Shown: positions 39,746 through 48,697, counted from the stretch's first letter. The stretch: 48,697 nucleotides of DNA from Candidatus Avispirillum sp. (GCA_045641325.1 JAZUGU010000100.1:1-48697), one strand, 5' to 3'. The notes: generated by a model from the letters alone, not told the origin. A program made the numbers and translations.

Positions 39746-40879
39746 TTATAGACAAGAATAGAGAACGTTTCTCAGTCTGTTTGCCGTATACCACTCCTGA
39801 TTGTTCAGCATATGATGGGCATAGAACATTGCCAGTTCATTGTCCGGATCGATCAGCTCGTATGCGCCTGCGGCTCCCGTCCAGCCGAATTCGCCCACGG
39901 GCGAAGGAGAGCCGGATGCCGCGCGGTCAACCATCGTGCGAACTCCCAGGCCGTATCCGTATCCCATCAGAGTATCCCAGTCAAATGTTGAAAGCTGGGC
40001 GGGTGAAAGCCTGTTCGTGCGCATCATATCGACCGTCGAAGGAGCGAGTATCGCACCGCCGTCGGGCGTTTTTCCTTTCATGCTCATGGCACACGCAAAT
40101 TTCGCCATATCATTAACGGTCGAAACGATGCCTGCGCCACCGCTGTAAAAATCACTGCCCATTATAAAATAATTGCGCTGACTTTCACGGACAAACATGC
40201 CTTTTTCGTCACTGTATGTATACTGTACCGAAAGGTTTTCGGGTATTTCCCATCCGCCGTAAAAGGTTTCGTCCATTCCAAGCGGGTCGAATATCATTTT
40301 CTTCGCGTAATCTTTCAGTGAGTATCCGGAAATTACCTCAACGAGCGCACCTATAACGTCGTGGGAAAGGCCGTAATTCCACCGTTCTCCGGGCTGGAAT
40401 ATCAGCGGATCGCGCCCCACCGCGTCCATCAGCTCAACGGTATTGCATACGGGATATGCCTTTTCCCGCGCCGCAGAAAGGGAAGGCCTGTCTGTGTTGT
40501 AGTCAAGCCCTGATGTCATTGAAAACAAATCGCCGATAGTGACCGGGCGTTCAACGGGAACGAGCTTTTCCGAGCCGTCATCGTTCTTAATAAGAACTTT
40601 CATATCCGACCATCCGGGCAGATAATCCGATACCTTGTCGTTTATGAGGAATTTGCCTCTTTCCCAAAGAGTAAGAGCCGCCGCACAGGTTATCGGCTTC
40701 GATGCCGAATACATGTACATAAGGCAGTTCTTTGACATTGGTATCTTATTTTCCGCATCGGAATACCCCGATGCGTATTCAAAGACCTTCTCACCGTGAA
40801 GATGTACAACGGCGGCGTTGCCGGGTATCCTCCACGATGTGAACTGATCCATCAGCTCTTTTAACTTCTGAAAATCCAT
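39746..40879 (-). CDS. Serine hydrolase, beta-lactamase (class C/esterase) fold
   Basis: SxxK (YSASKPIT), LFSMTSG, FQPGERWNYG, GAGIVST, FGWTGAAG. No signal peptide. Confidence 0.85.
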   Translation of the reverse strand: MDFQKLKELMDQFTSWRIPGNAAVVHLHGEKVFEYASGYSDAENKIPMSKNCLMYMYSASKPITCAAALTLWERGKFLINDKVSDYLPGWSDMKVLIKNDDGSEKLVPVERPVTIGDLFSMTSGLDYNTDRPSLSAAREKAYPVCNTVELMDAVGRDPLIFQPGERWNYGLSHDVIGALVEVISGYSLKDYAKKMIFDPLGMDETFYGGWEIPENLSVQYTYSDEKGMFVRESQRNYFIMGSDFYSGGAGIVSTVNDMAKFACAMSMKGKTPDGGAILAPSTVDMMRTNRLSPAQLSTFDWDTLMGYGYGLGVRTMVDRAASGSPSPVGEFGWTGAAGAYELIDPDNELAMFYAHHMLNNQEWYTANRLRNVLYSCL

Positions 40880-40894
40880 TTTGACCTTCCGTTA

Positions 40895-41920
40895 TCAGTC
40901 AAGAACGTAGACTGTTACATATCTGACGCCGTAATCCCAGTACGCAGGGTTATCGGAATCGTAATAAATATCAATGAAATTGCCTTTGATCACACCGCCG
41001 GTGTCAGCGGCAGTCCTTATACCCACACCCTCAATATAGACTCTCGATCCGAGGGGGATGACGGATGGGTCTACGGCAATGACGTCCTCAGAAGCGGGAA
41101 TTCCGCTTGCCGTGTTGCCTCCGCCGGAATAAACCGTGGACTTGCACTCAAACGTGCTTGAATAGCTATAATATGTACCGCCGATGTTTACCATACCGCC
41201 TACACCGTTGTATACGATCATGGTGACGGGCTCGAGAGAAACGTATTCGTCGGTCTTCTCACGCTCGATCTCAACGCCGTTAAGATATGTAACGGTGTAT
41301 GTAACCGTCCTTATACCCTCGTGACCTTCCTGGTGCACCTCGGTGGTGCCTTTGGGGATGGATTCGGAGTCAACGTATTCGATCTCATAATCGATCTCGT
41401 ACTCCTCGGTCACGGTCTCGTATGAAACGTTGTCAACGTTGATATCGGTATCCTTGTTGATGACAGCAGAAAGGTCGGTTTTTGTTTTCTCGTTTTCATC
41501 AAGCTGAATTCCGAGAATGTCGATCAGCTCGCCGACGGTCCTTTCGGAAGTAGTGCACTTGATGTTGTCTTTTTTGTAAAAAGTAAACGAAACATCGTAT
41601 TTGTCATCGTACTTGGGAACACTTGCAACAGCGGTTTTTGCCGCTTTGGAGACAGCGGTCGATTCACCGACGGTGAAATCTGCGGTCATAGGCTCCTTTT
41701 TATCGTCCGAAGGGGTAAAGATCATAACAGCGGCCGCTCCTATGATACAGACAAACAGAACTGCAACGGCAATGGAGACGTTTCTGATAAAACCTGCTGA
41801 ACGCCTCAATGCACCCTTTGGACCAATATTCGGTTTTGGTGCCTGACGCTTCGGACCCGTTTCACGTGAACGTGAATTGAGTTCGGACATGGCGTTGTTT
41901 TTCTTCAAAATATAGACCAT
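40895..41920 (-). CDS. Membrane-anchored G5-3D domain protein (YabE/Sps-like cell-wall hydrolase)
   Basis: Basic N-tail, one TM helix, a DUF348-like segment (TTSERTVGELI..LGI), G5 (IDYEIEY...KGT..V.QEG.EG), 3D (TASG...IAVDPSVIPLGS.VYIEG....AADTGG.IKGN.IDIY). Start uncertain (41920 or 41890). Confidence 0.85.
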   Translation of the reverse strand: MVYILKKNNAMSELNSRSRETGPKRQAPKPNIGPKGALRRSAGFIRNVSIAVAVLFVCIIGAAAVMIFTPSDDKKEPMTADFTVGESTAVSKAAKTAVASVPKYDDKYDVSFTFYKKDNIKCTTSERTVGELIDILGIQLDENEKTKTDLSAVINKDTDINVDNVSYETVTEEYEIDYEIEYVDSESIPKGTTEVHQEGHEGIRTVTYTVTYLNGVEIEREKTDEYVSLEPVTMIVYNGVGGMVNIGGTYYSYSSTFECKSTVYSGGGNTASGIPASEDVIAVDPSVIPLGSRVYIEGVGIRTAADTGGVIKGNFIDIYYDSDNPAYWDYGVRYVTVYVLD

Positions 41921-42008: not shown

Positions 42009-42037
42009 TTGACATATACCATATGTTGTGGTATTAT
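42009..42037 (+). promoter_or_regulatory. Sigma-A-type promoter of the hydrolase-murF-ddl operon
   Basis: TTGACA, 17-bp spacer, TATTAT with TGn extension. Confidence 0.8.
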
Positions 42038-42068: not shown

Positions 42069-42836
42069 TTGGAAAAGGTAATAAACGGGCTGAAAATAGC
42101 ATATAACGACACAGGCTCCGGCGAGGTCATCTTCCTGCTCCATGGATGGGGCTCGAAAAAAGAGCTGTTCGCTCCTGTAACGGCTGCCATGTCCGAAAAG
42201 TACCGCACGGTAGCTTTTGATCTGCCCGGCTTCGGCGGGTCCGATGAGCCGCCGGAAGTGTGGGATGTGGATGCTTTCGCGGATCTCTGCATCAGTTTCA
42301 TTGAGTCCTTCGACGAAAAAAAGGTCATTCTGCTGGGACATTCCTACGGCGGCAGAGTTATTATAAAAATGGCATCCCGCAAAGAACTGCCTTTCGAAAT
42401 ATCGAGGATTATTCTCGTGGATTCTGCGGGAGTTATGCCGAAACGTGGTCTTTCGTATAAAATACGTGTGAAAACGTATAAGCTCGGCAACAAGATCCTT
42501 TCCACACCTCCCATGAAGAAGCTTTTTCCCGATGCCGTGGAAAACAGAAGAAAGAAAAAGGGAAGTGCCGATTATTCCGCAGCATCTCCCATTATGAGAG
42601 GCTGTCTGGTTAAGGCTGTCAATGAGGATCTTACCTCACTTCTTCCATGTATCCCCTATGAAACCCTGCTGATATGGGGAACAGCCGATGATGCAACGCC
42701 TGTCAGCGACGGTGAAACAATGGAAAAGCTTATGCCTGATGCAGGCCTTGCCAAAATACAGGGCGCGGGGCACTTTTCGTGGCTTGACAACCCTGCAACT
42801 TTTGATGCAATAATTCGTTCTTTTCTGAAAATATAA
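42069..42836 (+). CDS. Alpha/beta-fold serine hydrolase
   Basis: LHGWG, FDLPGFG, nucleophile elbow GHSYGG, IWGTADDATP, GAGHFSW. Start moved to TTG 42069 (GGAGG 6 nt upstream); the ORF-track start lies inside the promoter. Confidence 0.88.
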   Translation: MEKVINGLKIAYNDTGSGEVIFLLHGWGSKKELFAPVTAAMSEKYRTVAFDLPGFGGSDEPPEVWDVDAFADLCISFIESFDEKKVILLGHSYGGRVIIKMASRKELPFEISRIILVDSAGVMPKRGLSYKIRVKTYKLGNKILSTPPMKKLFPDAVENRRKKKGSADYSAASPIMRGCLVKAVNEDLTSLLPCIPYETLLIWGTADDATPVSDGETMEKLMPDAGLAKIQGAGHFSWLDNPATFDAIIRSFLKI

Positions 42837-42845
42837 GGAGAACTT

Positions 42846-44426
42846 ATGGAGCTCATATTATTTGCCGTTTCCACAGCACTGTTTCTGTGGGCCTGCGTGA
42901 TGTCATTTACAAAGCAGACACATATGTTTCAGCTCAATTCGTATGATGCCGCAACACACTTAAAATGGCTTGCGAAAAATCCCTATCACATAGTATCCAA
43001 TATATTTGCTCTTGCGTTTCTGGCAATAGCAGTATTTTCAGATATCATATTCGATCTTCCTGCCAAGGTATCTGCAGTTCTTCATATTGCATCTGCGCTT
43101 GCATTCTTCCTGTTTGCTCTGTCTAATTCACAGAAAACAGCAGAAAAAACTCCTCTTGTCTATACTGCCAGAGTCAAAAGACTTATGGTCACGTTTCTCA
43201 TTATCTGTGTGATCGCGGCTGGCGCGGACTGGTATCTGTGGTTTGCCGGCTACGAGTTCATCGCTTACGTTGTTCTTTTCTCCGTGTATGCTCTCCTGCC
43301 GGTCATTCTTCTGATTTCAAATCTGATCAATGCTCCCATAGAGCATGCAGTCAAAAGATATTATCTGAACGATGCATTGAAAATGCTCAGATCCTGCCCG
43401 GATATGACCGTTGTCGGAATAACCGGCAGCTACGGAAAGACCTCGATGAAGCATTTTCTGTCAACGATACTTGAACAGAAATATAACGTGCTCATCCCCC
43501 CGAAGAATTATAATACCCCCATGGGTATCGTCAAAACCGTCAGAAGCGAACTGAGAGGCTATCACGAAGTGTTCGTGTGCGAAATGGGAGCAAAGAAGGT
43601 CGGAGAGATCAAGGAGCTTTGCGATATAGTATCTCCGAAATACGGTATTATCACGTCCATCGGCCCCCAGCACCTTGAATCGTTCAAAAGCATTGATAAC
43701 ATTATAAAGACCAAATTCGAGCTTGCAGATAACCTTAACGGCGGCAAGCTGTTCGTCAATCTCGATAACGAGTATATAAGAGAGAAAAAGCCGGAAAATG
43801 CCGTGACCTACGGTCAGGCTGAAGACGCTGATTACAGAGGCACCGATATATCCGTGTCAAGAGACGGAACGAGCTTTACAGTAGTGTATCCGGACGGGGC
43901 GGCACATAAATTCGAAACCGTTCTTATCGGCGCTCATAACGTCACAAACCTCTGCGGTGCGATCGCCATGGCAAAAGAACTCGGTGTCGATGATGAGGAT
44001 ATCGAAACGGGTATCATGAAGATAACTCCCGTTCCTCACCGTCTCGAGCTCAGCAGAAATGGCGGCATCACCATTATAGACGATGCATACAATTCAAATC
44101 CCAACGGCTGCAGAGCGGCACTTGACACCCTCGGCTATTTTGATTACAAGATCATCGTGACGCCCGGTATGGTTGAGCTCGGTGAAAAAGAAGAAGAGCT
44201 TAACCGTGAATTCGGTACGGAAGCCGCAGCTGTATGCGATTTTGTCATCCTTGTGGGAGAAAAGCAGACGAGACCTATCCTTGCAGGTCTTCACGATGCC
44301 GGATATCCCGATGAAAAGATATACGTAGCGGAGAGCCTTAACGACGCTATGCAAAAAGTATATTCTATTGAGACAGACCGTGAAAAGTGCGTTCTGCTTG
44401 AAAACGATCTGCCGGATAATTATTGA
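42846..44426 (+). CDS. murF: UDP-N-acetylmuramoyl-tripeptide--D-alanyl-D-alanine ligase with an N-terminal multi-TM extension
   Basis: VGITGSYGKTSMK, NYNTPMG, EMGA, GPQHLE, GAHNVTN, IIDDAYNSNPNG, TPGMVELG; the first ~160 aa are hydrophobic. Confidence 0.88.
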   Translation: MELILFAVSTALFLWACVMSFTKQTHMFQLNSYDAATHLKWLAKNPYHIVSNIFALAFLAIAVFSDIIFDLPAKVSAVLHIASALAFFLFALSNSQKTAEKTPLVYTARVKRLMVTFLIICVIAAGADWYLWFAGYEFIAYVVLFSVYALLPVILLISNLINAPIEHAVKRYYLNDALKMLRSCPDMTVVGITGSYGKTSMKHFLSTILEQKYNVLIPPKNYNTPMGIVKTVRSELRGYHEVFVCEMGAKKVGEIKELCDIVSPKYGIITSIGPQHLESFKSIDNIIKTKFELADNLNGGKLFVNLDNEYIREKKPENAVTYGQAEDADYRGTDISVSRDGTSFTVVYPDGAAHKFETVLIGAHNVTNLCGAIAMAKELGVDDEDIETGIMKITPVPHRLELSRNGGITIIDDAYNSNPNGCRAALDTLGYFDYKIIVTPGMVELGEKEEELNREFGTEAAAVCDFVILVGEKQTRPILAGLHDAGYPDEKIYVAESLNDAMQKVYSIETDREKCVLLENDLPDNY

Positions 44427-44439
44427 TATTGGAGGCTGT

Positions 44440-45639
44440 ATGAAAACAAAACTTGCCGTTCTTTTCGGCGGAAAAAGCGTGGAGCATGAGATATCCGTCA
44501 TTTCCGCTCTCCAGGCTATGGAAAATCTCGATCTTGAAAAATACGATCTTATTCCCGTTTATATTTCCAAGAACGGAGATATGTACACGGGAAAGGATCT
44601 TACCTTGTCCGAATCATACCGTGATATCCCGACTCTCCTGAAGAATGCCGTAAAAATCACGTTCGTTTCCGATAACGGAAAAGTGTTCATTGTCCGTTAT
44701 CCCGGTAAAAAGTTCGGTAATAACGTTATTTCCGAGGTTGATGTGGCATTCCCCATCGTCCACGGAACAAACGTAGAGGACGGAGCGCTTCAGGGATTTC
44801 TCAGGACTCTCGGTCTTCCTTTCGTCGGATGCGATGTGCTGGCTTCTGCCGTAGGCATGGATAAATACGTTATGAAATCCGTTCTGCGTGACGGCGGTTT
44901 CCCCGTGCTTGACAGCATGAGACTGAACGGAAAAATCATCAAGCATAAGGAATGCGTTGAAGCGATCGAGGGCAAATTTGATTATCCCGTTATCGTGAAG
45001 CCCGTAAACCTCGGTTCAAGTGTGGGCATATCCGTTGCTCACGACAGAGAATCTCTTGAAAAATCACTTACCGATGCGCTGAACTACGCGGATACCATCC
45101 TCGTTGAAAGAGCAATTGTCAATCTCCGCGAGATCAACTGCTCCGTTGTCGGGGACCCTTCATTCGCAGAGGCATCGGAGTGTGAAGAGCCCTTTATGTG
45201 TGACGAGATCCTCAGCTATCAGGATAAGTATATGAGCGGCGGCTCCAAAGGCTCGAAATCCGGCGGCTCCAAGGGAATGGCAAGCCTTAAGAGAAAGGTC
45301 CCTGCCGATATTTCCCCCGAACTTCGTGAGAGAATAAGAAAGATGGCTGTCGATTCTTTCCGCTGGCTCGGATGCTGCGGCGTTTCCCGCATTGATTTCA
45401 TGATAGACGCAGATACGGATGAGCTCTACATAAACGAGTTCAATACTATCCCCGGCTCACTTTCTTTCTATCTCTGGAAGCCTCTGGGCATAGAATATAA
45501 AGAACTTCTCGATAAGCTCATCTCTCTTGCGTTCAAACGTAAAAGGGAAGCCTCCGAAATCACTTTCTCATTCGATACCAACATCCTCGCCATGGGTGCT
45601 CCTACCGGCGCAAAAGGATCCAAAGGAGCAAAGAATTAA
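44440..45639 (+). CDS. ddl: D-alanine--D-alanine ligase
   Basis: LFGGKSVEHEIS, PIVHGTNVEDGALQG, GMDKYVMK, VKPVNLGSSVGI, REINC, SRIDF, NEFNTIPGS. Start moved to ATG 44440 (GGAGG). Confidence 0.93.
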   Translation: MKTKLAVLFGGKSVEHEISVISALQAMENLDLEKYDLIPVYISKNGDMYTGKDLTLSESYRDIPTLLKNAVKITFVSDNGKVFIVRYPGKKFGNNVISEVDVAFPIVHGTNVEDGALQGFLRTLGLPFVGCDVLASAVGMDKYVMKSVLRDGGFPVLDSMRLNGKIIKHKECVEAIEGKFDYPVIVKPVNLGSSVGISVAHDRESLEKSLTDALNYADTILVERAIVNLREINCSVVGDPSFAEASECEEPFMCDEILSYQDKYMSGGSKGSKSGGSKGMASLKRKVPADISPELRERIRKMAVDSFRWLGCCGVSRIDFMIDADTDELYINEFNTIPGSLSFYLWKPLGIEYKELLDKLISLAFKRKREASEITFSFDTNILAMGAPTGAKGSKGAKN

Positions 45640-45648
45640 GGAGAAATC

Positions 45649-46362
45649 ATGTTAAGGATCGAACATTTAACAAAAAAATACGGAGAGAAAAAGGCCGTAG
45701 ACGACATCTCTCTCCACATTCTTCCCGGTGAGATATACGGCTTTATAGGCCATAACGGAGCAGGAAAGACCACTACCATTAAATCAGTCTGCGGTATCCT
45801 CGGATTTGAAAACGGCGATATATATATCGACGGCGTTTCAATAAAGGATGACCCTATCACCTGTAAGAAAAAGATCGCATATATTCCCGACAACCCCGAT
45901 CTCTATGAGTTTATGACGGGAATTAAATACCTCAATTTCATCGCCGACATTTTCGGCGTCGGTGCCAAAGAGAGAAACGAGCGTATCATGAAATACGCCG
46001 AGCTATTCCAGATAACGGATAACCTTTCCTCTCCCATTTCGTCTTATTCTCACGGTATGAAGCAGAAGCTCGCCGTTATTTCCGCACTTATACATGAGCC
46101 CCGCCTTATTATCATGGACGAGCCTTTTGTAGGCCTCGATCCCAAGGCATCTCACAGCCTTAAAGAAATGATGCGTGAGATGTGCAACAACGGCTGCTCC
46201 ATATTCTTTTCCACCCACGTGCTCGAAGTCGCAGAGAAACTCTGCGATAAGATAGCCATTATCAAGGACGGTAAGCTCATCAAGTCCGGCACTATGGAAG
46301 AAGTCAAGGGTGACGAAAGCCTTGAGGAGGTATTCCTGGAACTGGAGGACGACAATGCTTAA
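45649..46362 (+). CDS. ABC transporter ATP-binding protein (export type)
   Basis: Walker A GHNGAGKTT, signature SYSHGMKQK, Walker B IIMDEP, H-loop STH. Confidence 0.92.
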   Translation: MLRIEHLTKKYGEKKAVDDISLHILPGEIYGFIGHNGAGKTTTIKSVCGILGFENGDIYIDGVSIKDDPITCKKKIAYIPDNPDLYEFMTGIKYLNFIADIFGVGAKERNERIMKYAELFQITDNLSSPISSYSHGMKQKLAVISALIHEPRLIIMDEPFVGLDPKASHSLKEMMREMCNNGCSIFFSTHVLEVAEKLCDKIAIIKDGKLIKSGTMEEVKGDESLEEVFLELEDDNA

Positions 46363-47950
46363 AGCTCTGTTCAGAAAGCAGATGTCGGAAATCGGCGCGT
46401 TCATGTTTACCAACGTGAAGACGGGAAAGCGCCGTTCAAGTGCGGGTATTGCTGGGTATGCCGTTCTTATGGTATTCCTTGCCATAACGCTGATGTTTAC
46501 CTTCGGCATGATAGCTTTCACCATCGTTCCTCTTTGCGAAGTCGGTCTCACATGGTACTATTTTGGTATCATGACTCTTGTAGCCATCGCTTTCGGCGTT
46601 CTCGGAAGTGTGTTCACCACATATTCCGGGCTGTACCTTGCCAAAGATAACGAACTGCTCCTGTCAATGCCCGTAAAACCCATGTATATCCTTTTCGTAA
46701 GGATGTCCGGCGTTTACATTATGGGCCTGATTTACAGCGCAGTCGTTATGATTCCCGCACTTTTCGCATATTTCACAGAGGCGCCCCAGACCGTACTGAC
46801 AGTCATCTTCTCGGTAATGCTGATATTTATAGTATCCTTTATCGTTCTGGTGCTTTCGTGCGTCCTTGGGTGGGTAGTGGCACAGATCGCATCGAGACTG
46901 AAAAACAAGAGTATGATAACAGTCATCATATCTCTTTCGTTTATCGCCGCATATTATTACTTCTACAGTAAGGCTATCAACCTTTTAAGTTCTCTGGTTG
47001 AGAACGGCGCACAGTCTGCAGAGGCGTTCCGCAAATGGGGATACGTTTTCACAGTCCTCGGTAAAGCCGCTGAGGGTAACGTTATTGCATTTGCATTAGC
47101 TCTCAACGGGTCTTTGGCGCTCGTCCTGCTCTGTCTGTACGTGCTTTCTCTGGGTTTCACGAAGCTTGCGACAATGAACCCCGGTTCCGCAAAAAAGAAA
47201 AAGCTGAAGATATCGGATAAAAGCGGAAGCATCGGAAAAGCACTGCTGGGGAAAGAAATCAAAAGATTCACCTCCAGCGCCAACTATATGCTCAACTGCG
47301 GTCTCGGCATCGTATTTTCTCTGGTGATCGCAGTCGCCGCTCTCATAAAAACCAATACCGTGAGAACCGTGGCATTTTCCTTGTTTTCCGGTGGATATGA
47401 GGATCTGTTCGCACTGATAATATGCGCCGCATCGTGTATGATGGCAGCGACTGTTGATATCACTGCTCCCTCTGTTTCTCTTGAAGGAAAGAATATATGG
47501 ATCGCGCAGTCTCTCCCCATTGATTTCTACGAGATTCTTAAAGCAAAGCTTTCCGTGCACCTTATTTTCGGACTTATACCCACTGTATTGTGTACCGTAG
47601 CTCTTCTGTTCGTTTTCATGGTTGATATCGCTTCGTCTCTTGTGACCATCGCATCGGTGATACTGTTCACGGTCCTCTGTGCGGAATTCGGACTGTTCAT
47701 AAATTTGAAACTGCCCAATCTCAACTGGACCAACGAAGTGGCTCCCATAAAGCAGAGCGCTGCCGTAGGAATTGCACTTTTCGGCGGATGGGGAGTTGTT
47801 GTAGTGCTCGGCGTTTTGTATTATCTTATCAGCTCTTACGTTTCAGCATTCTTTTACCTGTGCGCCGTGTCTGCCGTATTTGCGGTGCTTACGGTCATCC
47901 TCAATATATGGCTCAGAAATAAAGGCAGCAGAATATTTGCAAGTCTTTGA
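46355..47950 (+). CDS. ABC-2-type exporter permease (long, about 12 TM)
   Basis: Highly hydrophobic; KDNELLLSMPV and SVSLEGKNIWIAQSLP motifs. Start moved to ATG 46355 (GGAGG; overlaps the ATPase). Confidence 0.8.
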   Translation: MLKALFRKQMSEIGAFMFTNVKTGKRRSSAGIAGYAVLMVFLAITLMFTFGMIAFTIVPLCEVGLTWYYFGIMTLVAIAFGVLGSVFTTYSGLYLAKDNELLLSMPVKPMYILFVRMSGVYIMGLIYSAVVMIPALFAYFTEAPQTVLTVIFSVMLIFIVSFIVLVLSCVLGWVVAQIASRLKNKSMITVIISLSFIAAYYYFYSKAINLLSSLVENGAQSAEAFRKWGYVFTVLGKAAEGNVIAFALALNGSLALVLLCLYVLSLGFTKLATMNPGSAKKKKLKISDKSGSIGKALLGKEIKRFTSSANYMLNCGLGIVFSLVIAVAALIKTNTVRTVAFSLFSGGYEDLFALIICAASCMMAATVDITAPSVSLEGKNIWIAQSLPIDFYEILKAKLSVHLIFGLIPTVLCTVALLFVFMVDIASSLVTIASVILFTVLCAEFGLFINLKLPNLNWTNEVAPIKQSAAVGIALFGGWGVVVVLGVLYYLISSYVSAFFYLCAVSAVFAVLTVILNIWLRNKGSRIFASL

Positions 47951-47970
47951 CCAGAAAGGCAGCTCGGGAT

Positions 47971-48697
47971 ATGTCATATTCTTTAACAGTACTCACCCCG
48001 TTGTACAATCGCCCCGAATTCATAGATAAGCTGTACGAAAGCCTCAGTGCACAGACTCTGAAAGATTTTCAGTGGCTCGTTATCGATGACGGAAGCAGGG
48101 AATCGGCTGAAGTTAAGTTCCGTGAGCTTTCGGAGAACGCTCCGTTCTGTATTGAGTATCACTATAAAGAAAACGGCGGAAAGCATACTGCGCTGAACTA
48201 TTCTCATCCGTATATCAAGTCGGATTTCGTGCTTATCCTCGACAGCGATGATACGCTGACACCGGATGCAGTTGAAACGGTAAAGAAATATACCGATAAA
48301 TACTGCGATAATAAGGATATAGGCGTTATCAGCTTCCAGCGCGGGACCGATGCGGAGCATCCTCTCGTCGATTATTCGAAAGATGAAGAAGTATCCGACC
48401 ACATAACTTACAGGCTCAACGGAAACCGTCCGGGGGACAGCTGTGAGGTCATACGGACAGAAGTTTTGAAAGAGTATCCTTTTCCCGTGTTTCCCGGCGA
48501 ACGTTTCCTTGTTGAAACTCATCTTTGGGTGTCAACCGCCGAAAAATATAAGACCGTCTACGTGAAAAAAGTCATATACCTCAACGATTACCAGGAGGGC
48601 GGACTTACAGACAGCGGCCACGGCATGAGGCGAAAGTGCCCGCTTGGCGGAATGTATTCCCAGCGTCTGGAACTTGACGGCAGGTTCAATCTGAAGA
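47971..48697 (+). CDS. Glycosyltransferase family 2 (3'-partial)
   Basis: Absent from the ORF track because it has no stop in the window. Translated by hand: MSYSLTVLTPLYNRPEFIDKLYESL..Q...FQWLVIDDGS...ENGGKHTALN...LILDSDD...; open to the window end. Confidence 0.88.
   Translation, partial: MSYSLTVLTPLYNRPEFIDKLYESLSAQTLKDFQWLVIDDGSRESAEVKFRELSENAPFCIEYHYKENGGKHTALNYSHPYIKSDFVLILDSDDTLTPDAVETVKKYTDKYCDNKDIGVISFQRGTDAEHPLVDYSKDEEVSDHITYRLNGNRPGDSCEVIRTEVLKEYPFPVFPGERFLVETHLWVSTAEKYKTVYVKKVIYLNDYQEGGLTDSGHGMRRKCPLGGMYSQRLELDGRFNLK

What the first reader, a model, noticed from the sequence alone, without database searches (positions are those of the whole stretch)
42069..45639. Alpha/beta hydrolase - membrane-anchored MurF - atypical Ddl: a conserved-looking but unexplained peptidoglycan module
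Seen: three genes with 9- and 13-nt gaps behind one promoter. The hydrolase has an intact Ser-Asp-His set and a basic amphipathic cap (RGLSYKIRVKTYKLGNKIL...RRKKKGSADY). The Ddl ends in NTIPGSLSFYLW rather than the common NTxPGxTxxS. Established (from memory, to verify): Helicobacter/Campylobacter also cluster ddl, an alpha/beta hydrolase and murF. Inference: a membrane-tethered D-Ala-D-Ala incorporation complex in which the hydrolase edits wrong dipeptides/depsipeptides or acylated precursors. I know of no assigned role for the hydrolase in wall synthesis.
Basis: partly seen in the sequence, partly recalled or inferred. Interest (0 to 1): 0.65.

Follow-up and report, generated by a model that had tools for sequence, protein, structure and literature searches.

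The report
Membrane-anchored MurF operon with hydrolase partner
These three genes are this gut bacterium's only enzymes for putting the D-Ala-D-Ala end on its cell-wall building block, in the little-studied "Helicobacter-type" form: the MurF ligase is built into the membrane and always comes with a serine hydrolase whose job is still unknown.

Summary
A promoter-like site is followed by three tightly spaced genes. They are an EstV-like alpha/beta hydrolase, a MurF whose UDP-binding N-domain is replaced by a roughly 5-helix membrane domain, and a Ddl with the signature NTIPGSLSFYLW.

They are the only MurF and Ddl in a 96%-complete genome, and the dcw cluster has no murF, so this is the housekeeping D-Ala-D-Ala branch.

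- In 250 sampled Clostridia genomes, the hydrolase was found in every one of the 36 genomes with membrane MurF. It was found in none of about 211 genomes with ordinary MurF.
- The special Ddl follows the same pattern.
- The same trio occurs in 61 of 61 sampled Campylobacterota. There the hydrolase is NCBIfam's EstV family, and the literature reports H. pylori MurF transmembrane helices and a possibly essential C. jejuni Cj0796c.
- Twelve Chloroflexota protein clusters fuse the hydrolase to the C-terminus of membrane MurF. The hydrolase is therefore a cytoplasmic physical partner.

Its "editing" role for the hydrolase is untested and fits the data poorly.

This is a new member of a known but mechanistically unexplained kind. 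The hydrolase's chemistry remains the open question.

The parts
42009..42037 (+). Sigma-70-type promoter-like site, TTGACA-17-TATTAT with a TG extension
   Evidence: 11 of 12 matches. In the sequence it lies 31 nt upstream of the hydrolase start. This is a consensus match only.
42069..42836 (+). EstV-like alpha/beta serine hydrolase, 255 aa. Ser92 is at 42342-42344, Asp207 at 42687-42689 and His235 at 42771-42773. The basic cap spans 42432-42650 and the conserved GSADY motif is at 42561-42575.
   Evidence: Pfam Abhydrolase_6/1. The best NCBIfam match is NF058580, EstV family lipase, at 117 bits against a cut-off of 300. The triad is invariant in 73 homologues. The AF2 model has pLDDT 93.4. Its closest folds are small-substrate esterases and perhydrolases and the membrane phospholipase PlaF, at TM about 0.75-0.78.
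42846..43400 (+). N-terminal membrane domain of MurF (aa 1-185), about five helices. Conserved cytoplasmic-face motifs are HMFQLNSY (42921-42944), PLVYTARVKR (43152-43181) and NLINAPIE (43320-43343).
   Evidence: No Pfam or NCBIfam domain matches it. Hydropathy and the positive-inside rule were examined, and invariant columns. A profile of this domain finds 2295 representatives of 50%-identity clusters (1215 at E<=1e-10). In the full-length hits listed it sits at the N-terminus of MurF-length proteins. It folds confidently (pLDDT 84-97) in the model of a homologue.
43401..44426 (+). MurF ligase domains 2 and 3, with the ATP P-loop GITGSYGKTS at 43416-43445 and the family-specific C-terminus LLENDLPDNY at 44394-44423
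   Evidence: Mur_ligase_M and Mur_ligase_C. TIGR01143 murF scores 243 bits over model positions 69-392, the best of all Mur ligase families. The model of a homologue superposes on MurF structures 4QF5, 4QDI, 3ZL8 and 1GG4 at rmsd 2.4-4.0 A over about 370 columns. It is the only MurF in the genome.
44440..45639 (+). Module-type D-Ala-D-Ala ligase, 399 aa. It has a Gly/Lys-rich omega-loop insert (45235-45297), the NTIPGSLSFYLW motif (45442-45477) and a conserved C-terminal tail ending GxKGxK (45556-45636).
   Evidence: Dala_Dala_lig_N and Dala_Dala_lig_C. NF002528 scores 308 bits against a cut-off of 262, and TIGR01205 scores 267 against 245.65. It is the only Ddl in the genome. The alignment to DdlA structures keeps the catalytic residues, including the omega-loop K-Y. 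The tail and motif are conserved and recur in Campylobacterota and Chloroflexota.
45649..47950 (+). ABC ATPase (45649-46362) and permease (46355-47950). They look co-transcribed with the module in this genome but are not part of the conserved module.
   Evidence: There is a 9-nt gap with an SD after the ddl stop. Pfam gives ABC_tran and ABC_tran_2. Neither gene is linked to the module in the 80 related loci.

Best explanation
This is the cell's housekeeping D-Ala-D-Ala branch of peptidoglycan precursor synthesis, in its "Helicobacter-type" membrane form.

**Proposed steps**
1. Alr, encoded elsewhere in the genome, supplies D-Ala.
2. The module's own Ddl makes D-Ala-D-Ala.
3. MurF adds the dipeptide to the MurNAc-tripeptide precursor at the cytoplasmic face of the membrane, close to MraY. 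Its UDP-binding N-domain is replaced by a five-helix membrane domain with conserved polar and basic loops facing the cytoplasm.
4. The EstV-like serine hydrolase is an obligate, catalytically competent, cytoplasmic partner of this MurF form. It is not a bystander.

**What is shown and what is inferred**
- Shown by sequence and comparative evidence: the enzyme identities, the sole-copy status, the strict three-way co-inheritance, and the fusion of the hydrolase to MurF in another phylum.
- Inferred: MurF still uses the UDP-linked tripeptide (my odds about 0.65).
- Inferred: the hydrolase works at the membrane interface beside the membrane domain, through its +10 cap. My best single guess (about 0.3) is that it acts on a lipid-anchored or polyanionic species of the precursor pathway. 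Clearing or releasing a dead-end lipid-linked intermediate would be one example. The precedent is B. subtilis UshA, a cytoplasmic alpha/beta hydrolase reported to free undecaprenyl phosphate from UndP-linked sugars.
- I think editing of dipeptides is less likely.
For: **Sole copy**
- Only one MurF-type and one Ddl-type gene were found in a 96%-complete genome.
- The dcw cluster reads murE-mraY-ftsW-murG-ftsQ-ftsZ, with murF missing.
- alr is present.

**Enzyme identity**
- The ligase part is MurF by profile and by fold.
- The Ddl passes two NCBIfam cut-offs and keeps the catalytic residues.

**Co-inheritance in Clostridia (250 genomes sampled)**
- 36 genomes carry membrane MurF, and none of them has a second match at E<=1e-30.
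- 39 genomes carry the hydrolase at E<=1e-25. These are the same 36 plus 3 genomes whose MurF is partial or absent from a fragmented assembly. None of about 211 genomes with ordinary MurF has it.
- In the pairs I compared the hydrolase lies directly upstream on the same strand. The one exception I saw is G009, about 4.3 kb away.
- Module-type Ddl (over 330 bits, with the C-terminal tail) occurs only in those genomes.
- The distribution is patchy within families, which suggests a mobile cassette.

**Second phylum (Campylobacterota)**
- 61 of 61 genomes have both genes.
- They are adjacent in 53. In 7 they are unlinked yet both retained, and in one they lie on separate contigs.
- There the hydrolase scores 327-331 bits on NF058580 EstV, against a cut-off of 300.

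**Fusions**
- 12 protein clusters of 804-890 aa have the architecture membrane-MurF, linker, hydrolase.
- One is a single ORF in two independent assemblies and is followed by a module-type Ddl.
- Its linker is disordered, while both parts fold confidently.

**Literature**
- H. pylori MurF has four predicted N-terminal TM helices (PMC9448923).
- Deletion of C. jejuni Cj0796c failed, so it is possibly essential, and it lies between ddl and murF (PMC5530802).
- EstV is an active short-chain carboxylesterase (PMC3741291).
- UshA is the precedent for a cytoplasmic alpha/beta hydrolase acting on carrier-lipid-linked sugars (PMC11898649).
- The basic cap is conserved.
Against: - No biochemical data exist for any membrane-type MurF. 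The substrate, UDP-linked or lipid-linked, is therefore not established.
- No substrate of the hydrolase is known beyond artificial short-chain esters.
- The structural neighbours of the hydrolase are generic and point to no specific chemistry.
- The evidence for essentiality in C. jejuni consists of failed deletion attempts, not a controlled depletion.
- I could not obtain coordinates of the fusion model. No interface between the hydrolase and MurF was examined, and pTM 0.70 does not prove a fixed docking.
- The 4% of the genome that is missing could hide another murF. This is unlikely, because the ordinary and membrane forms were mutually exclusive in the sample.
Confidence: 0.72

Rival explanations
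1. Membrane-level route. Having lost the UDP-binding domain, the membrane MurF adds D-Ala-D-Ala to undecaprenyl-diphosphate-linked MurNAc-tripeptide (lipid I or lipid II level) instead of to UDP-MurNAc-tripeptide. The hydrolase serves this lipid-linked chemistry.
For: - The UDP-binding domain 1 is entirely absent. It is replaced by a membrane domain whose invariant residues (His, Gln, Asn, Tyr, Trp, Lys, Arg, Thr) lie on cytoplasmic-face loops.
- From general knowledge, MurT is a Mur-type ligase without domain 1. It acts on lipid II together with a partner hydrolase, GatD.
- The hydrolase cap is strongly basic, as in interfacial enzymes.
- UshA shows that a cytoplasmic alpha/beta hydrolase can act on carrier-lipid-linked sugars.
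Against: - There is no direct evidence.
- The conserved loops could bind UDP just as well.
- MraY would have to accept the tripeptide nucleotide routinely.
- The ligase domains are closest to ordinary MurF.
Confidence: 0.15
2. The hydrolase is a non-editing accessory subunit. It would stand in for the missing N-domain, holding or gating the nucleotide-sugar end of the substrate. Alternatively it acts as a regulatory, ligand-sensing partner, as the alpha/beta hydrolase RsbQ does for RsbP in B. subtilis. In either case hydrolysis of a wall intermediate is not its main role.
For: - It co-occurs strictly with the form of MurF that lacks domain 1, never with ordinary MurF.
- It is fused to MurF in Chloroflexota.
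- It is retained even where the two genes are unlinked.
- It has a conserved polar cap motif, GS(A/S)DY...P.MR.
Against: - The catalytic Ser-Asp-His triad and the oxyanion HGWG motif are invariant across three phyla, which argues for real catalysis.
- H. pylori EstV is an active esterase.
- In the fusions a long disordered linker attaches it to the C-terminus, not to the N-terminus where domain 1 would sit.
Confidence: 0.2
3. The hydrolase proof-reads the pathway by hydrolysing wrong dipeptides or depsipeptides (D-Ala-D-Lac, D-Ala-D-Ser) or mis-acylated precursors.
For: - It is genetically linked to ddl and murF.
- It has an intact triad.
- Some alpha/beta hydrolases (S33 family) are peptidases, and there are weak profile hits to proline iminopeptidases.
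- H. pylori Ddl has unusual kinetics, with Km2 reported as 627 mM (PMC6899670).
Against: - The hydrolase is absent from all of about 211 sampled genomes with ordinary MurF, which would need the same proof-reading.
- It is possibly essential in C. jejuni, which is unusual for an editor.
- The module Ddl keeps the Lys-Tyr of D-Ala-D-Ala-specific ligases.
- A +10 cap is unexpected for an enzyme acting on small zwitterionic dipeptides.
Confidence: 0.1
4. The trio is not the housekeeping pathway. It would be an accessory or resistance cassette (van-like, or for a second polymer), or the hydrolase is an unrelated esterase that merely hitch-hikes.
For: - The cassette is patchily distributed, as if mobile.
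- In this genome it is followed by an ABC transporter.
- Notes from earlier agents of this scan (unchecked AI notes) mention a Saccharibacteria genome with both an ordinary MurF and the trio.
Against: - It provides the only MurF and the only Ddl in this genome, and the dcw cluster lacks murF.
- The membrane and ordinary MurF forms are mutually exclusive in 250 genomes.
- There are no vanH, vanX or vanRS-type neighbours.
- Fusions, and retention of both genes when unlinked, argue against hitch-hiking.
Confidence: 0.04

Closest known systems
Helicobacter pylori ddlA-estV-murF (HP0738-HP0740, locus tags from memory) and Campylobacter jejuni Cj0798c (ddl) / Cj0796c (alpha/beta hydrolase) / Cj0795c (murF)
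   Same: - The same three proteins are present.
- MurF has an N-terminal membrane domain and shares the motifs Q-x-x-S-Y, LV(F/Y)T(S/A)(K/R)VK and a C-terminal ND.P.
- The hydrolase lies directly upstream of murF and has the same triad and a basic cap.
- The Ddl has PGS(L/M)A.YL(F/W) and a C-terminal G.KGK tail.
- The literature notes the TM helices and the possible essentiality of the hydrolase.
   Different: - The gene order is ddl, hydrolase, murF there, against hydrolase, murF, ddl here.
- Sequence similarity is low. Clostridial profiles score about 200 bits on MurF and 90-130 bits on the hydrolase.
- The window's hydrolase scores 117 bits on the EstV model, well under its 300-bit cut-off.
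- The Campylobacter Ddl lacks the Gly/Lys-rich omega-loop insert.
[quoted passage not shown]
   Same: The central ATP-binding domain and the C-terminal domain are shared, with the P-loop and the best profile and fold matches. The presumed reaction is the same.
   Different: - There is no N-terminal UDP-binding domain. TIGR01143 model positions 1-68 are unmatched, and the score of 243 bits is below the 288.6 cut-off.
- A roughly 180-aa polytopic membrane domain takes its place.
- The C-terminus is a distinct LLENDLPDNY.
- The gene lies outside the dcw cluster.
- It has an obligate hydrolase partner.
MurT/GatD (lipid II isoglutamine synthase of Gram-positive bacteria)
   Same: It is a Mur-type ligase lacking domain 1 that works with a dedicated partner hydrolase at the membrane face (general knowledge). 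There is a weak MurT profile hit.
   Different: - GatD is a glutaminase that supplies ammonia, whereas the partner here is an alpha/beta serine hydrolase.
- MurT is not membrane-embedded.
- The ligase here is MurF-like, not MurT-like. This is an analogy in working principle only.
UshA (YqjL) of Bacillus subtilis
   Same: It is a cytoplasmic alpha/beta hydrolase without a signal peptide. It is proposed to act at the membrane face on carrier-lipid-linked sugars and so protect peptidoglycan synthesis (PMC11898649).
   Different: - No specific sequence relationship was detected, and it is not among the hydrolase's top profile hits.
- UshA is induced by stress and is not linked to murF.
- It serves only as a precedent for the kind of chemistry.

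Membership tests
[quoted passage not shown] | Mur ligase central (ATP-binding) and C-terminal domains that are closest to MurF among the Mur ligases | tested here: met
   Mur_ligase_M scores E 1e-42 and Mur_ligase_C E 6e-14. TIGR01143 is the top hit at 243 bits, far above MurC, MurD and MurE. The fold of a homologue is closest to the MurF structures 4QF5, 4QDI, 3ZL8 and 1GG4.
[quoted passage not shown] | N-terminal domain 1 that binds the UDP moiety, and a full-length score above the curated cut-off | tested here: not met
   TIGR01143 model positions 1-68 are unmatched. The score of 243.3 bits is below the 288.6 cut-off. Residues 1-185 are a membrane domain instead.
[quoted passage not shown] | Catalyses addition of D-Ala-D-Ala to UDP-MurNAc-tripeptide | not testable with these tools
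   The activity is inferred from three facts: it is the only MurF-type gene, it is linked to ddl, and it is mutually exclusive with ordinary MurF.
Helicobacter-type membrane MurF module (hydrolase + TM-MurF + Ddl) | MurF with a homologous N-terminal polytopic membrane domain | tested here: met
   The clostridial full-length profile aligns to Campylobacterota MurF starting inside the membrane-domain region, at profile positions 4-145. Shared motifs are seen in the ORFs. The H. pylori TM helices are noted in the literature.
Helicobacter-type membrane MurF module (hydrolase + TM-MurF + Ddl) | EstV-lineage alpha/beta hydrolase encoded directly upstream of murF and co-occurring with it | tested here: met
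   The gap in the window is 9 nt. All 36 Clostridia genomes with membrane MurF carry the hydrolase, and none of about 211 others do. All 61 sampled Campylobacterota carry both genes, adjacent in 53.
Helicobacter-type membrane MurF module (hydrolase + TM-MurF + Ddl) | Module-type Ddl with the PGSL(S/A)FYLW-type motif and a C-terminal GxKGxK tail | tested here: met
   Both features are present in the window. They occur only in membrane-MurF genomes of the Clostridia sample. They are also present in C. jejuni, Halarcobacter and Chloroflexota.
EstV family lipase (NCBIfam NF058580, equivalog) | Score above the curated cut-off of 300 bits | tested here: not met
   The window's hydrolase scores 117 bits, whereas the Campylobacterota orthologues score 327-331 bits. 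It is the best-matching curated family and occupies the same genomic position, so it is a distant relative of the same lineage and not an equivalog.
EstV family lipase (NCBIfam NF058580, equivalog) | Ser-Asp-His triad in an alpha/beta hydrolase fold | tested here: met
   GHSYGG (Ser92), Asp207 and His235 are invariant. The AF2 model has pLDDT 93.4 with a canonical fold.
D-alanine--D-alanine ligase (TIGR01205 / NF002528) | Score above the curated cut-offs, with the ATP-grasp catalytic residues and the omega-loop Lys-Tyr | tested here: met
   NF002528 scores 308 bits against 262, and TIGR01205 scores 267.5 against 245.65. The alignment to DdlA structures keeps E15, the SS pair, K-Y, R, D, E and N equivalents.
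Vancomycin-resistance ligases (VanA/B/C/G types) | Score above the family cut-offs, with vanH, vanX or vanRS neighbours | tested here: not met
   All Van models score far below their cut-offs. VanG, for example, scores 221 bits against 495. There are no van accessory genes nearby.

The most novel reading that the evidence does not exclude
In the many lineages that carry this module, the last "cytoplasmic" step of peptidoglycan precursor synthesis would be done differently from the textbook. These lineages include gut Clostridia, Campylobacterota such as H. pylori and C. jejuni, and Chloroflexota, with more phyla mentioned in earlier scan notes.

The membrane domain of MurF would bind an undecaprenyl-diphosphate-linked (or MraY-presented) MurNAc-tripeptide, so that D-Ala-D-Ala is added at the membrane. 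The obligate EstV-like hydrolase would carry out a so far unknown, possibly essential hydrolytic step on a lipid-linked or protected intermediate.
Probability: 0.15. Interest if true: 0.85.

Novelty: new member of a known kind. Interest (0 to 1): 0.55.

Why it matters
MurF and Ddl are classical antibiotic targets, and textbooks treat them as soluble cytoplasmic enzymes. In this module MurF is an integral membrane protein with an obligate serine-hydrolase partner. The same form is the only MurF in major gut commensals (Oscillospirales, Lachnospirales) and in the pathogens H. pylori and C. jejuni.

The role of the hydrolase is a well-defined open question, and simple genetics and biochemistry could settle it. 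If the hydrolase is essential, it and the membrane domain would be lineage-restricted targets.

The natural MurF-hydrolase fusions found here offer a ready-made single-chain object for structural work.

Tried and rejected
**Structure**
- I folded the window's hydrolase (pLDDT 93.4) and searched the PDB with it. Only generic esterases, perhydrolases, C-C hydrolases and PlaF came back, at about 20-26% identity. No specific function could be read from this.
- I folded a natural Chloroflexota fusion to look for docking of the hydrolase on MurF. The tool returns no coordinates, so the interface could not be inspected. Only pLDDT 91, pTM 0.70 and a disordered linker are known.

**Ddl**
- I first suspected that the Ddl motif replaces the D-Ala2-binding Ser by Tyr. 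The HMMER alignment to DdlA instead shows a loop four residues shorter, with a Ser or Ala at that place. I dropped the claim.
- I asked whether the module Ddl is specifically H. pylori-Ddl-like. PDB 2PVP scores only 106 bits, against about 200 for enterobacterial DdlA. The shared features are limited to the motif and the tail.

**Searches that led nowhere**
- A remembered H. pylori 16S primer gave no Helicobacter hit. A Campylobacter 16S primer worked.
- The Blair 2018 and Ruiz 2007 papers are not held. Their content is cited second-hand from papers that are held.
- Phrase searches for membrane-anchored or transmembrane MurF found no paper.

**Readings rejected**
- A van-type resistance cassette, because of the low scores, the missing accessory genes and the sole-copy status.
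- A hitch-hiking esterase, because of the fusions and because both genes are retained where they are unlinked.

Full report
**1. What is in the sequence**

Between 42009 and 45639 on the + strand there is a strong promoter-like site: TTGACA, a 17-nt spacer ending in TG, then TATTAT, at 42009-42037. Three genes follow.
- The first starts at a TTG at 42069, eight bases after a GGAGG, and ends at 42836.
- The second runs from 42846 to 44426.
- The third runs from 44440 to 45639.
- The gaps are 9 and 13 nt and each contains a Shine-Dalgarno sequence.

One correction is needed: the unit does not end at ddl. An ABC ATPase gene starts 9 nt after the ddl stop behind its own SD. An overlapping permease gene and a glycosyltransferase gene follow. 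These extra genes are not linked to the module in relatives.

**2. The three proteins**

*Gene 1: hydrolase*
- It is an alpha/beta hydrolase (Abhydrolase_6 and Abhydrolase_1).
- Of 18,950 NCBIfam models, the best match is "EstV family lipase" NF058580. It scores 117 bits over nearly the full length, far below that model's 300-bit equivalog cut-off.
- Ser92 (GHSYGG), Asp207 and His235 are invariant in 73 homologues, as is a cap motif G-S-x-D-Y...P-x-M-R.
- The cap (residues 122-165) carries a mean net charge of +9.6 (range +5 to +15) across the homologues, while the whole protein averages +1.8.
- The AF2 model is confident (pLDDT 93.4). Its nearest solved folds are generic small-substrate esterases and perhydrolases, C-C hydrolases and the membrane phospholipase PlaF. 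The fold gives no specific function.

*Gene 2: MurF*
- It has only the central and C-terminal Mur ligase domains, from residue 192 on.
- It matches the MurF model TIGR01143 at positions 69-392 only, with 243 bits against a 288.6 cut-off.
- Residues 1-166 form about five hydrophobic helices.
- The two longer loops are rich in Lys and Arg. By the positive-inside rule, and because the ATP-dependent ligase is cytoplasmic, they face the cytoplasm.
- These loops carry the invariant residues of the domain: H26, Q29, Y33, W41, N45; K101, T107, R109, R112, T116; N159, N162, P164, E166.

*Gene 3: Ddl*
- It is a D-Ala-D-Ala ligase that passes two curated cut-offs: NF002528 at 308 bits against 262, and TIGR01205 at 267 against 246.
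- It keeps the catalytic residues, including the omega-loop Lys-Tyr typical of D-Ala-D-Ala-specific enzymes.
- It has three subfamily signatures:
  - a Gly/Lys-rich insert in the omega loop;
  - a shortened loop NTIPGSL(S/A)FYLW in place of NTxPGFTxxSMYPKLW;
  - a roughly 27-residue C-terminal extension ending G-x-K-G-x-K.

**3. Housekeeping role**

The genome holding the window (1.9 Mb, 172 contigs, 96% complete) has no other MurF-type gene. The other Mur-ligase hits are two MurE-like proteins, MurC, MurD and FolC. There is no other Ddl. The dcw cluster on contig C1 reads murE-mraY-ftsW-murG-ftsQ-ftsZ, with murF missing from its usual slot. Alanine racemase is present elsewhere. The module is therefore the cell's D-Ala-D-Ala branch, not an accessory or van-like cassette. 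All Van models score far below their cut-offs, and there are no van accessory genes.

**4.

More than 8000 proteins of about 520 aa share this architecture. In 80 related loci from Oscillospirales- and Lachnospirales-type genomes, the order hydrolase, murF, ddl is kept wherever the contig reaches far enough.

In an even sample of 250 genomes of the class:
- 36 have the membrane form of MurF: full-length profile match, over 320 bits, ORF about 475-560 aa.
- The rest have an ordinary MurF of about 460 aa. The two forms are mutually exclusive.
- The hydrolase (E<=1e-25) is found in 39 genomes. These are the same 36 plus three whose MurF is partial or absent from a fragmented assembly.
- It is found in none of about 211 genomes with ordinary MurF.
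- In the pairs I compared it lies directly upstream of murF on the same strand. The one exception I saw is about 4.3 kb away.
- The module-type Ddl (over 330 bits, match reaching into the C-terminal tail) is likewise found only in membrane-MurF genomes. Ordinary Ddls score 250-319 bits and stop at about profile position 370.

The distribution is patchy within families. The window's proteins are closer to those of other orders than to those of its own order. This suggests a three-gene cassette that has repeatedly replaced ordinary murF and ddl.

**5. Helicobacter and Campylobacter**

*Literature*
- H. pylori MurF has four predicted N-terminal transmembrane domains. It is treated as an inner-membrane partner of Csd5, Csd7 and CcmA (PMC9448923, citing Blair 2018).
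- In C. jejuni, Cj0795c (murF), Cj0796c (alpha/beta hydrolase) and Cj0798c (ddl) lie together. Attempts to delete Cj0796c failed, and the authors suggest it may be essential (PMC5530802).
- H. pylori EstV is an active carboxylesterase preferring C2-C6 esters (PMC3741291).

*Direct check*
- I reached Campylobacterota genomes through a 16S primer.
- C. jejuni, C. coli, C. concisus and Halarcobacter all have ddl, hydrolase and membrane murF adjacent on one strand.
- In a sample of 61 genomes of that phylum, all 61 have both the hydrolase and the membrane MurF. The genes are adjacent in 53. In 7 they are unlinked but both retained, and in one they lie on separate contigs.
- The EstV model NF058580 hits exactly that hydrolase above its cut-off, at 327-331 bits.
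- Signature motifs are shared with the window's proteins:
  - MurF: Q-x-x-S-Y, LV(F/Y)T(S/A)(K/R)VK, and a C-terminal ND.P;
  - Ddl: PGS(L/M)A.YL(F/W) and a terminal G.KGK.

The module is therefore the "Helicobacter type".

**6. Natural fusions**

I searched with a concatenation of the three proteins, so that only proteins longer than about 650 aa were candidates.
- This found 12 protein clusters of 804-890 aa, labelled Chloroflexota where named.
- In them the membrane MurF is followed by a low-complexity linker and then the hydrolase, with its triad and cap motif intact.
- One of them is a single 833-aa ORF in two independent assemblies. It is followed 100 nt later by a Ddl with the same NTIPGSLSFYLW motif, Gly/Lys loop and GAKGSK tail.
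- The AF2 model of this fusion is confident for the membrane domain, the ligase and the hydrolase (mean pLDDT 91). Only the linker, residues 541-576, is disordered.
- Its ligase part superposes best on MurF structures.

Because the ligase is cytoplasmic, the fused hydrolase must be cytoplasmic too. Fusion is classical evidence that two proteins work together physically.

A profile of the membrane domain alone finds 2295 representatives of 50%-identity clusters, 1215 of them at E<=1e-10. In the full-length hits listed it sits at the N-terminus of MurF-length proteins.

**7. How it most likely works**

*Shown by sequence and comparative evidence*
- Enzyme identities.
- Sole-copy status.
- Three-way co-inheritance in two phyla.
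- Fusion in a third phylum.
- Cytoplasmic location of the hydrolase.
- An invariant catalytic triad.

*Inferred*
- Ddl makes D-Ala-D-Ala, and the membrane MurF adds it to the MurNAc-tripeptide precursor at the inner face of the membrane, near MraY.
- The conserved polar and basic loops of the membrane domain take over the substrate-holding role of the lost domain 1.
- Whether the acceptor is still the UDP-linked tripeptide (my odds about 0.65) or a lipid-linked one (about 0.15) cannot be decided here.

*The hydrolase*
- The pattern argues for an obligate catalytic partner of the membrane form, not a general proof-reader. It is tied to the membrane form only, may be essential, is fused to MurF in one phylum, and has a +10 cap.
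- My best single guess (about 0.3) is an interfacial reaction on a lipid-anchored or polyanionic species of the pathway. The precedent is B. subtilis UshA, a cytoplasmic alpha/beta hydrolase that liberates undecaprenyl phosphate from UndP-linked sugars (PMC11898649).
- MurT/GatD is a useful analogy: a Mur-type ligase without domain 1 that works on a lipid-linked substrate with a partner hydrolase.
- One published oddity fits none of these cleanly. H. pylori Ddl has a reported Km for the second D-Ala of 627 mM, the highest concentration tested (PMC6899670). This may mean the isolated enzyme lacks its partners.

**8. Novelty**

The building blocks are on record: H. pylori MurF TM helices, EstV as an esterase, and the C. 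jejuni gene neighbourhood. I found no paper that describes the membrane MurF as a family, links EstV functionally to MurF, or explains either.

Notes by earlier agents of this scan report the same module in many other genomes and phyla, and also draw the Helicobacter connection. These are AI notes, not independent evidence. My own tests agree with them.

For this window the verdict is a new member of a known, mechanistically unexplained kind.
- a quantitative co-occurrence test in two phyla;
- the link of the Ddl subtype to the module;
- the natural MurF-hydrolase fusions.

Noticed in passing
window 45649-48696: An ABC ATPase (DrrA-like), an overlapping roughly 530-aa permease (weak PF16949 match) and a glycosyltransferase-like ORF follow ddl. 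They have 9-nt or overlapping junctions, so the transcription unit is probably at least six genes long in this genome. The link to the module is not conserved in 80 related loci.
   Followed up: partly
own genome, contigs C1 (12145-13536, -) and C14 (1703-3223, -): There are two MurE-like ligases. One is in the dcw cluster, which lacks murF (murE-mraY-ftsW-murG-ftsQ-ftsZ). The second is a stand-alone copy of 507 aa. The reason for two copies is unknown.
   Followed up: no
window 45556-45636, and Ddl C-termini in L216 510-1550, L218 505-1563, L220 8602-9846: Module-linked Ddl proteins of three phyla end in a conserved extension with a terminal G-x-K-G-x-K motif. In Clostridia and Chloroflexota it resembles the Gly/Lys-rich insert in their omega loop. 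It could be a docking tail for MurF or the hydrolase, but this was not tested.
   Followed up: partly
window 39746-41920 (- strand): Two wall-related genes are transcribed divergently from the module. One is a G5 + 3D-domain protein (40895-41920), predicted to be anchored and possibly lytic-transglycosylase-like. The other is a beta-lactamase/PBP4B-family serine hydrolase (39746-40879). Neither was found next to the module in relatives.
   Followed up: partly
L218 1566-2186 (Halarcobacter MAG, G253): The hydrolase reading frame is interrupted by an in-frame TAA before the catalytic His. This is either a sequencing error in a long-read MAG or a broken copy.
   Followed up: no
protein P0134 (872 aa): One hit has the opposite order, hydrolase then membrane MurF. 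The two parts are joined by a repetitive HPTGRVSPA stretch, and the C-terminal half is garbled. It looks like a frameshifted or read-through gene call in a high-GC contig, not a second fusion type.
   Followed up: no
class sample: Membrane MurF is patchy inside several families (for example f18: 1 of 8; f41: 4 of 9). The window's copy is closer to those of other orders (720-770 bits) than to those of its own order (508 bits). This suggests horizontal spread of the cassette among gut Clostridia.
   Followed up: partly
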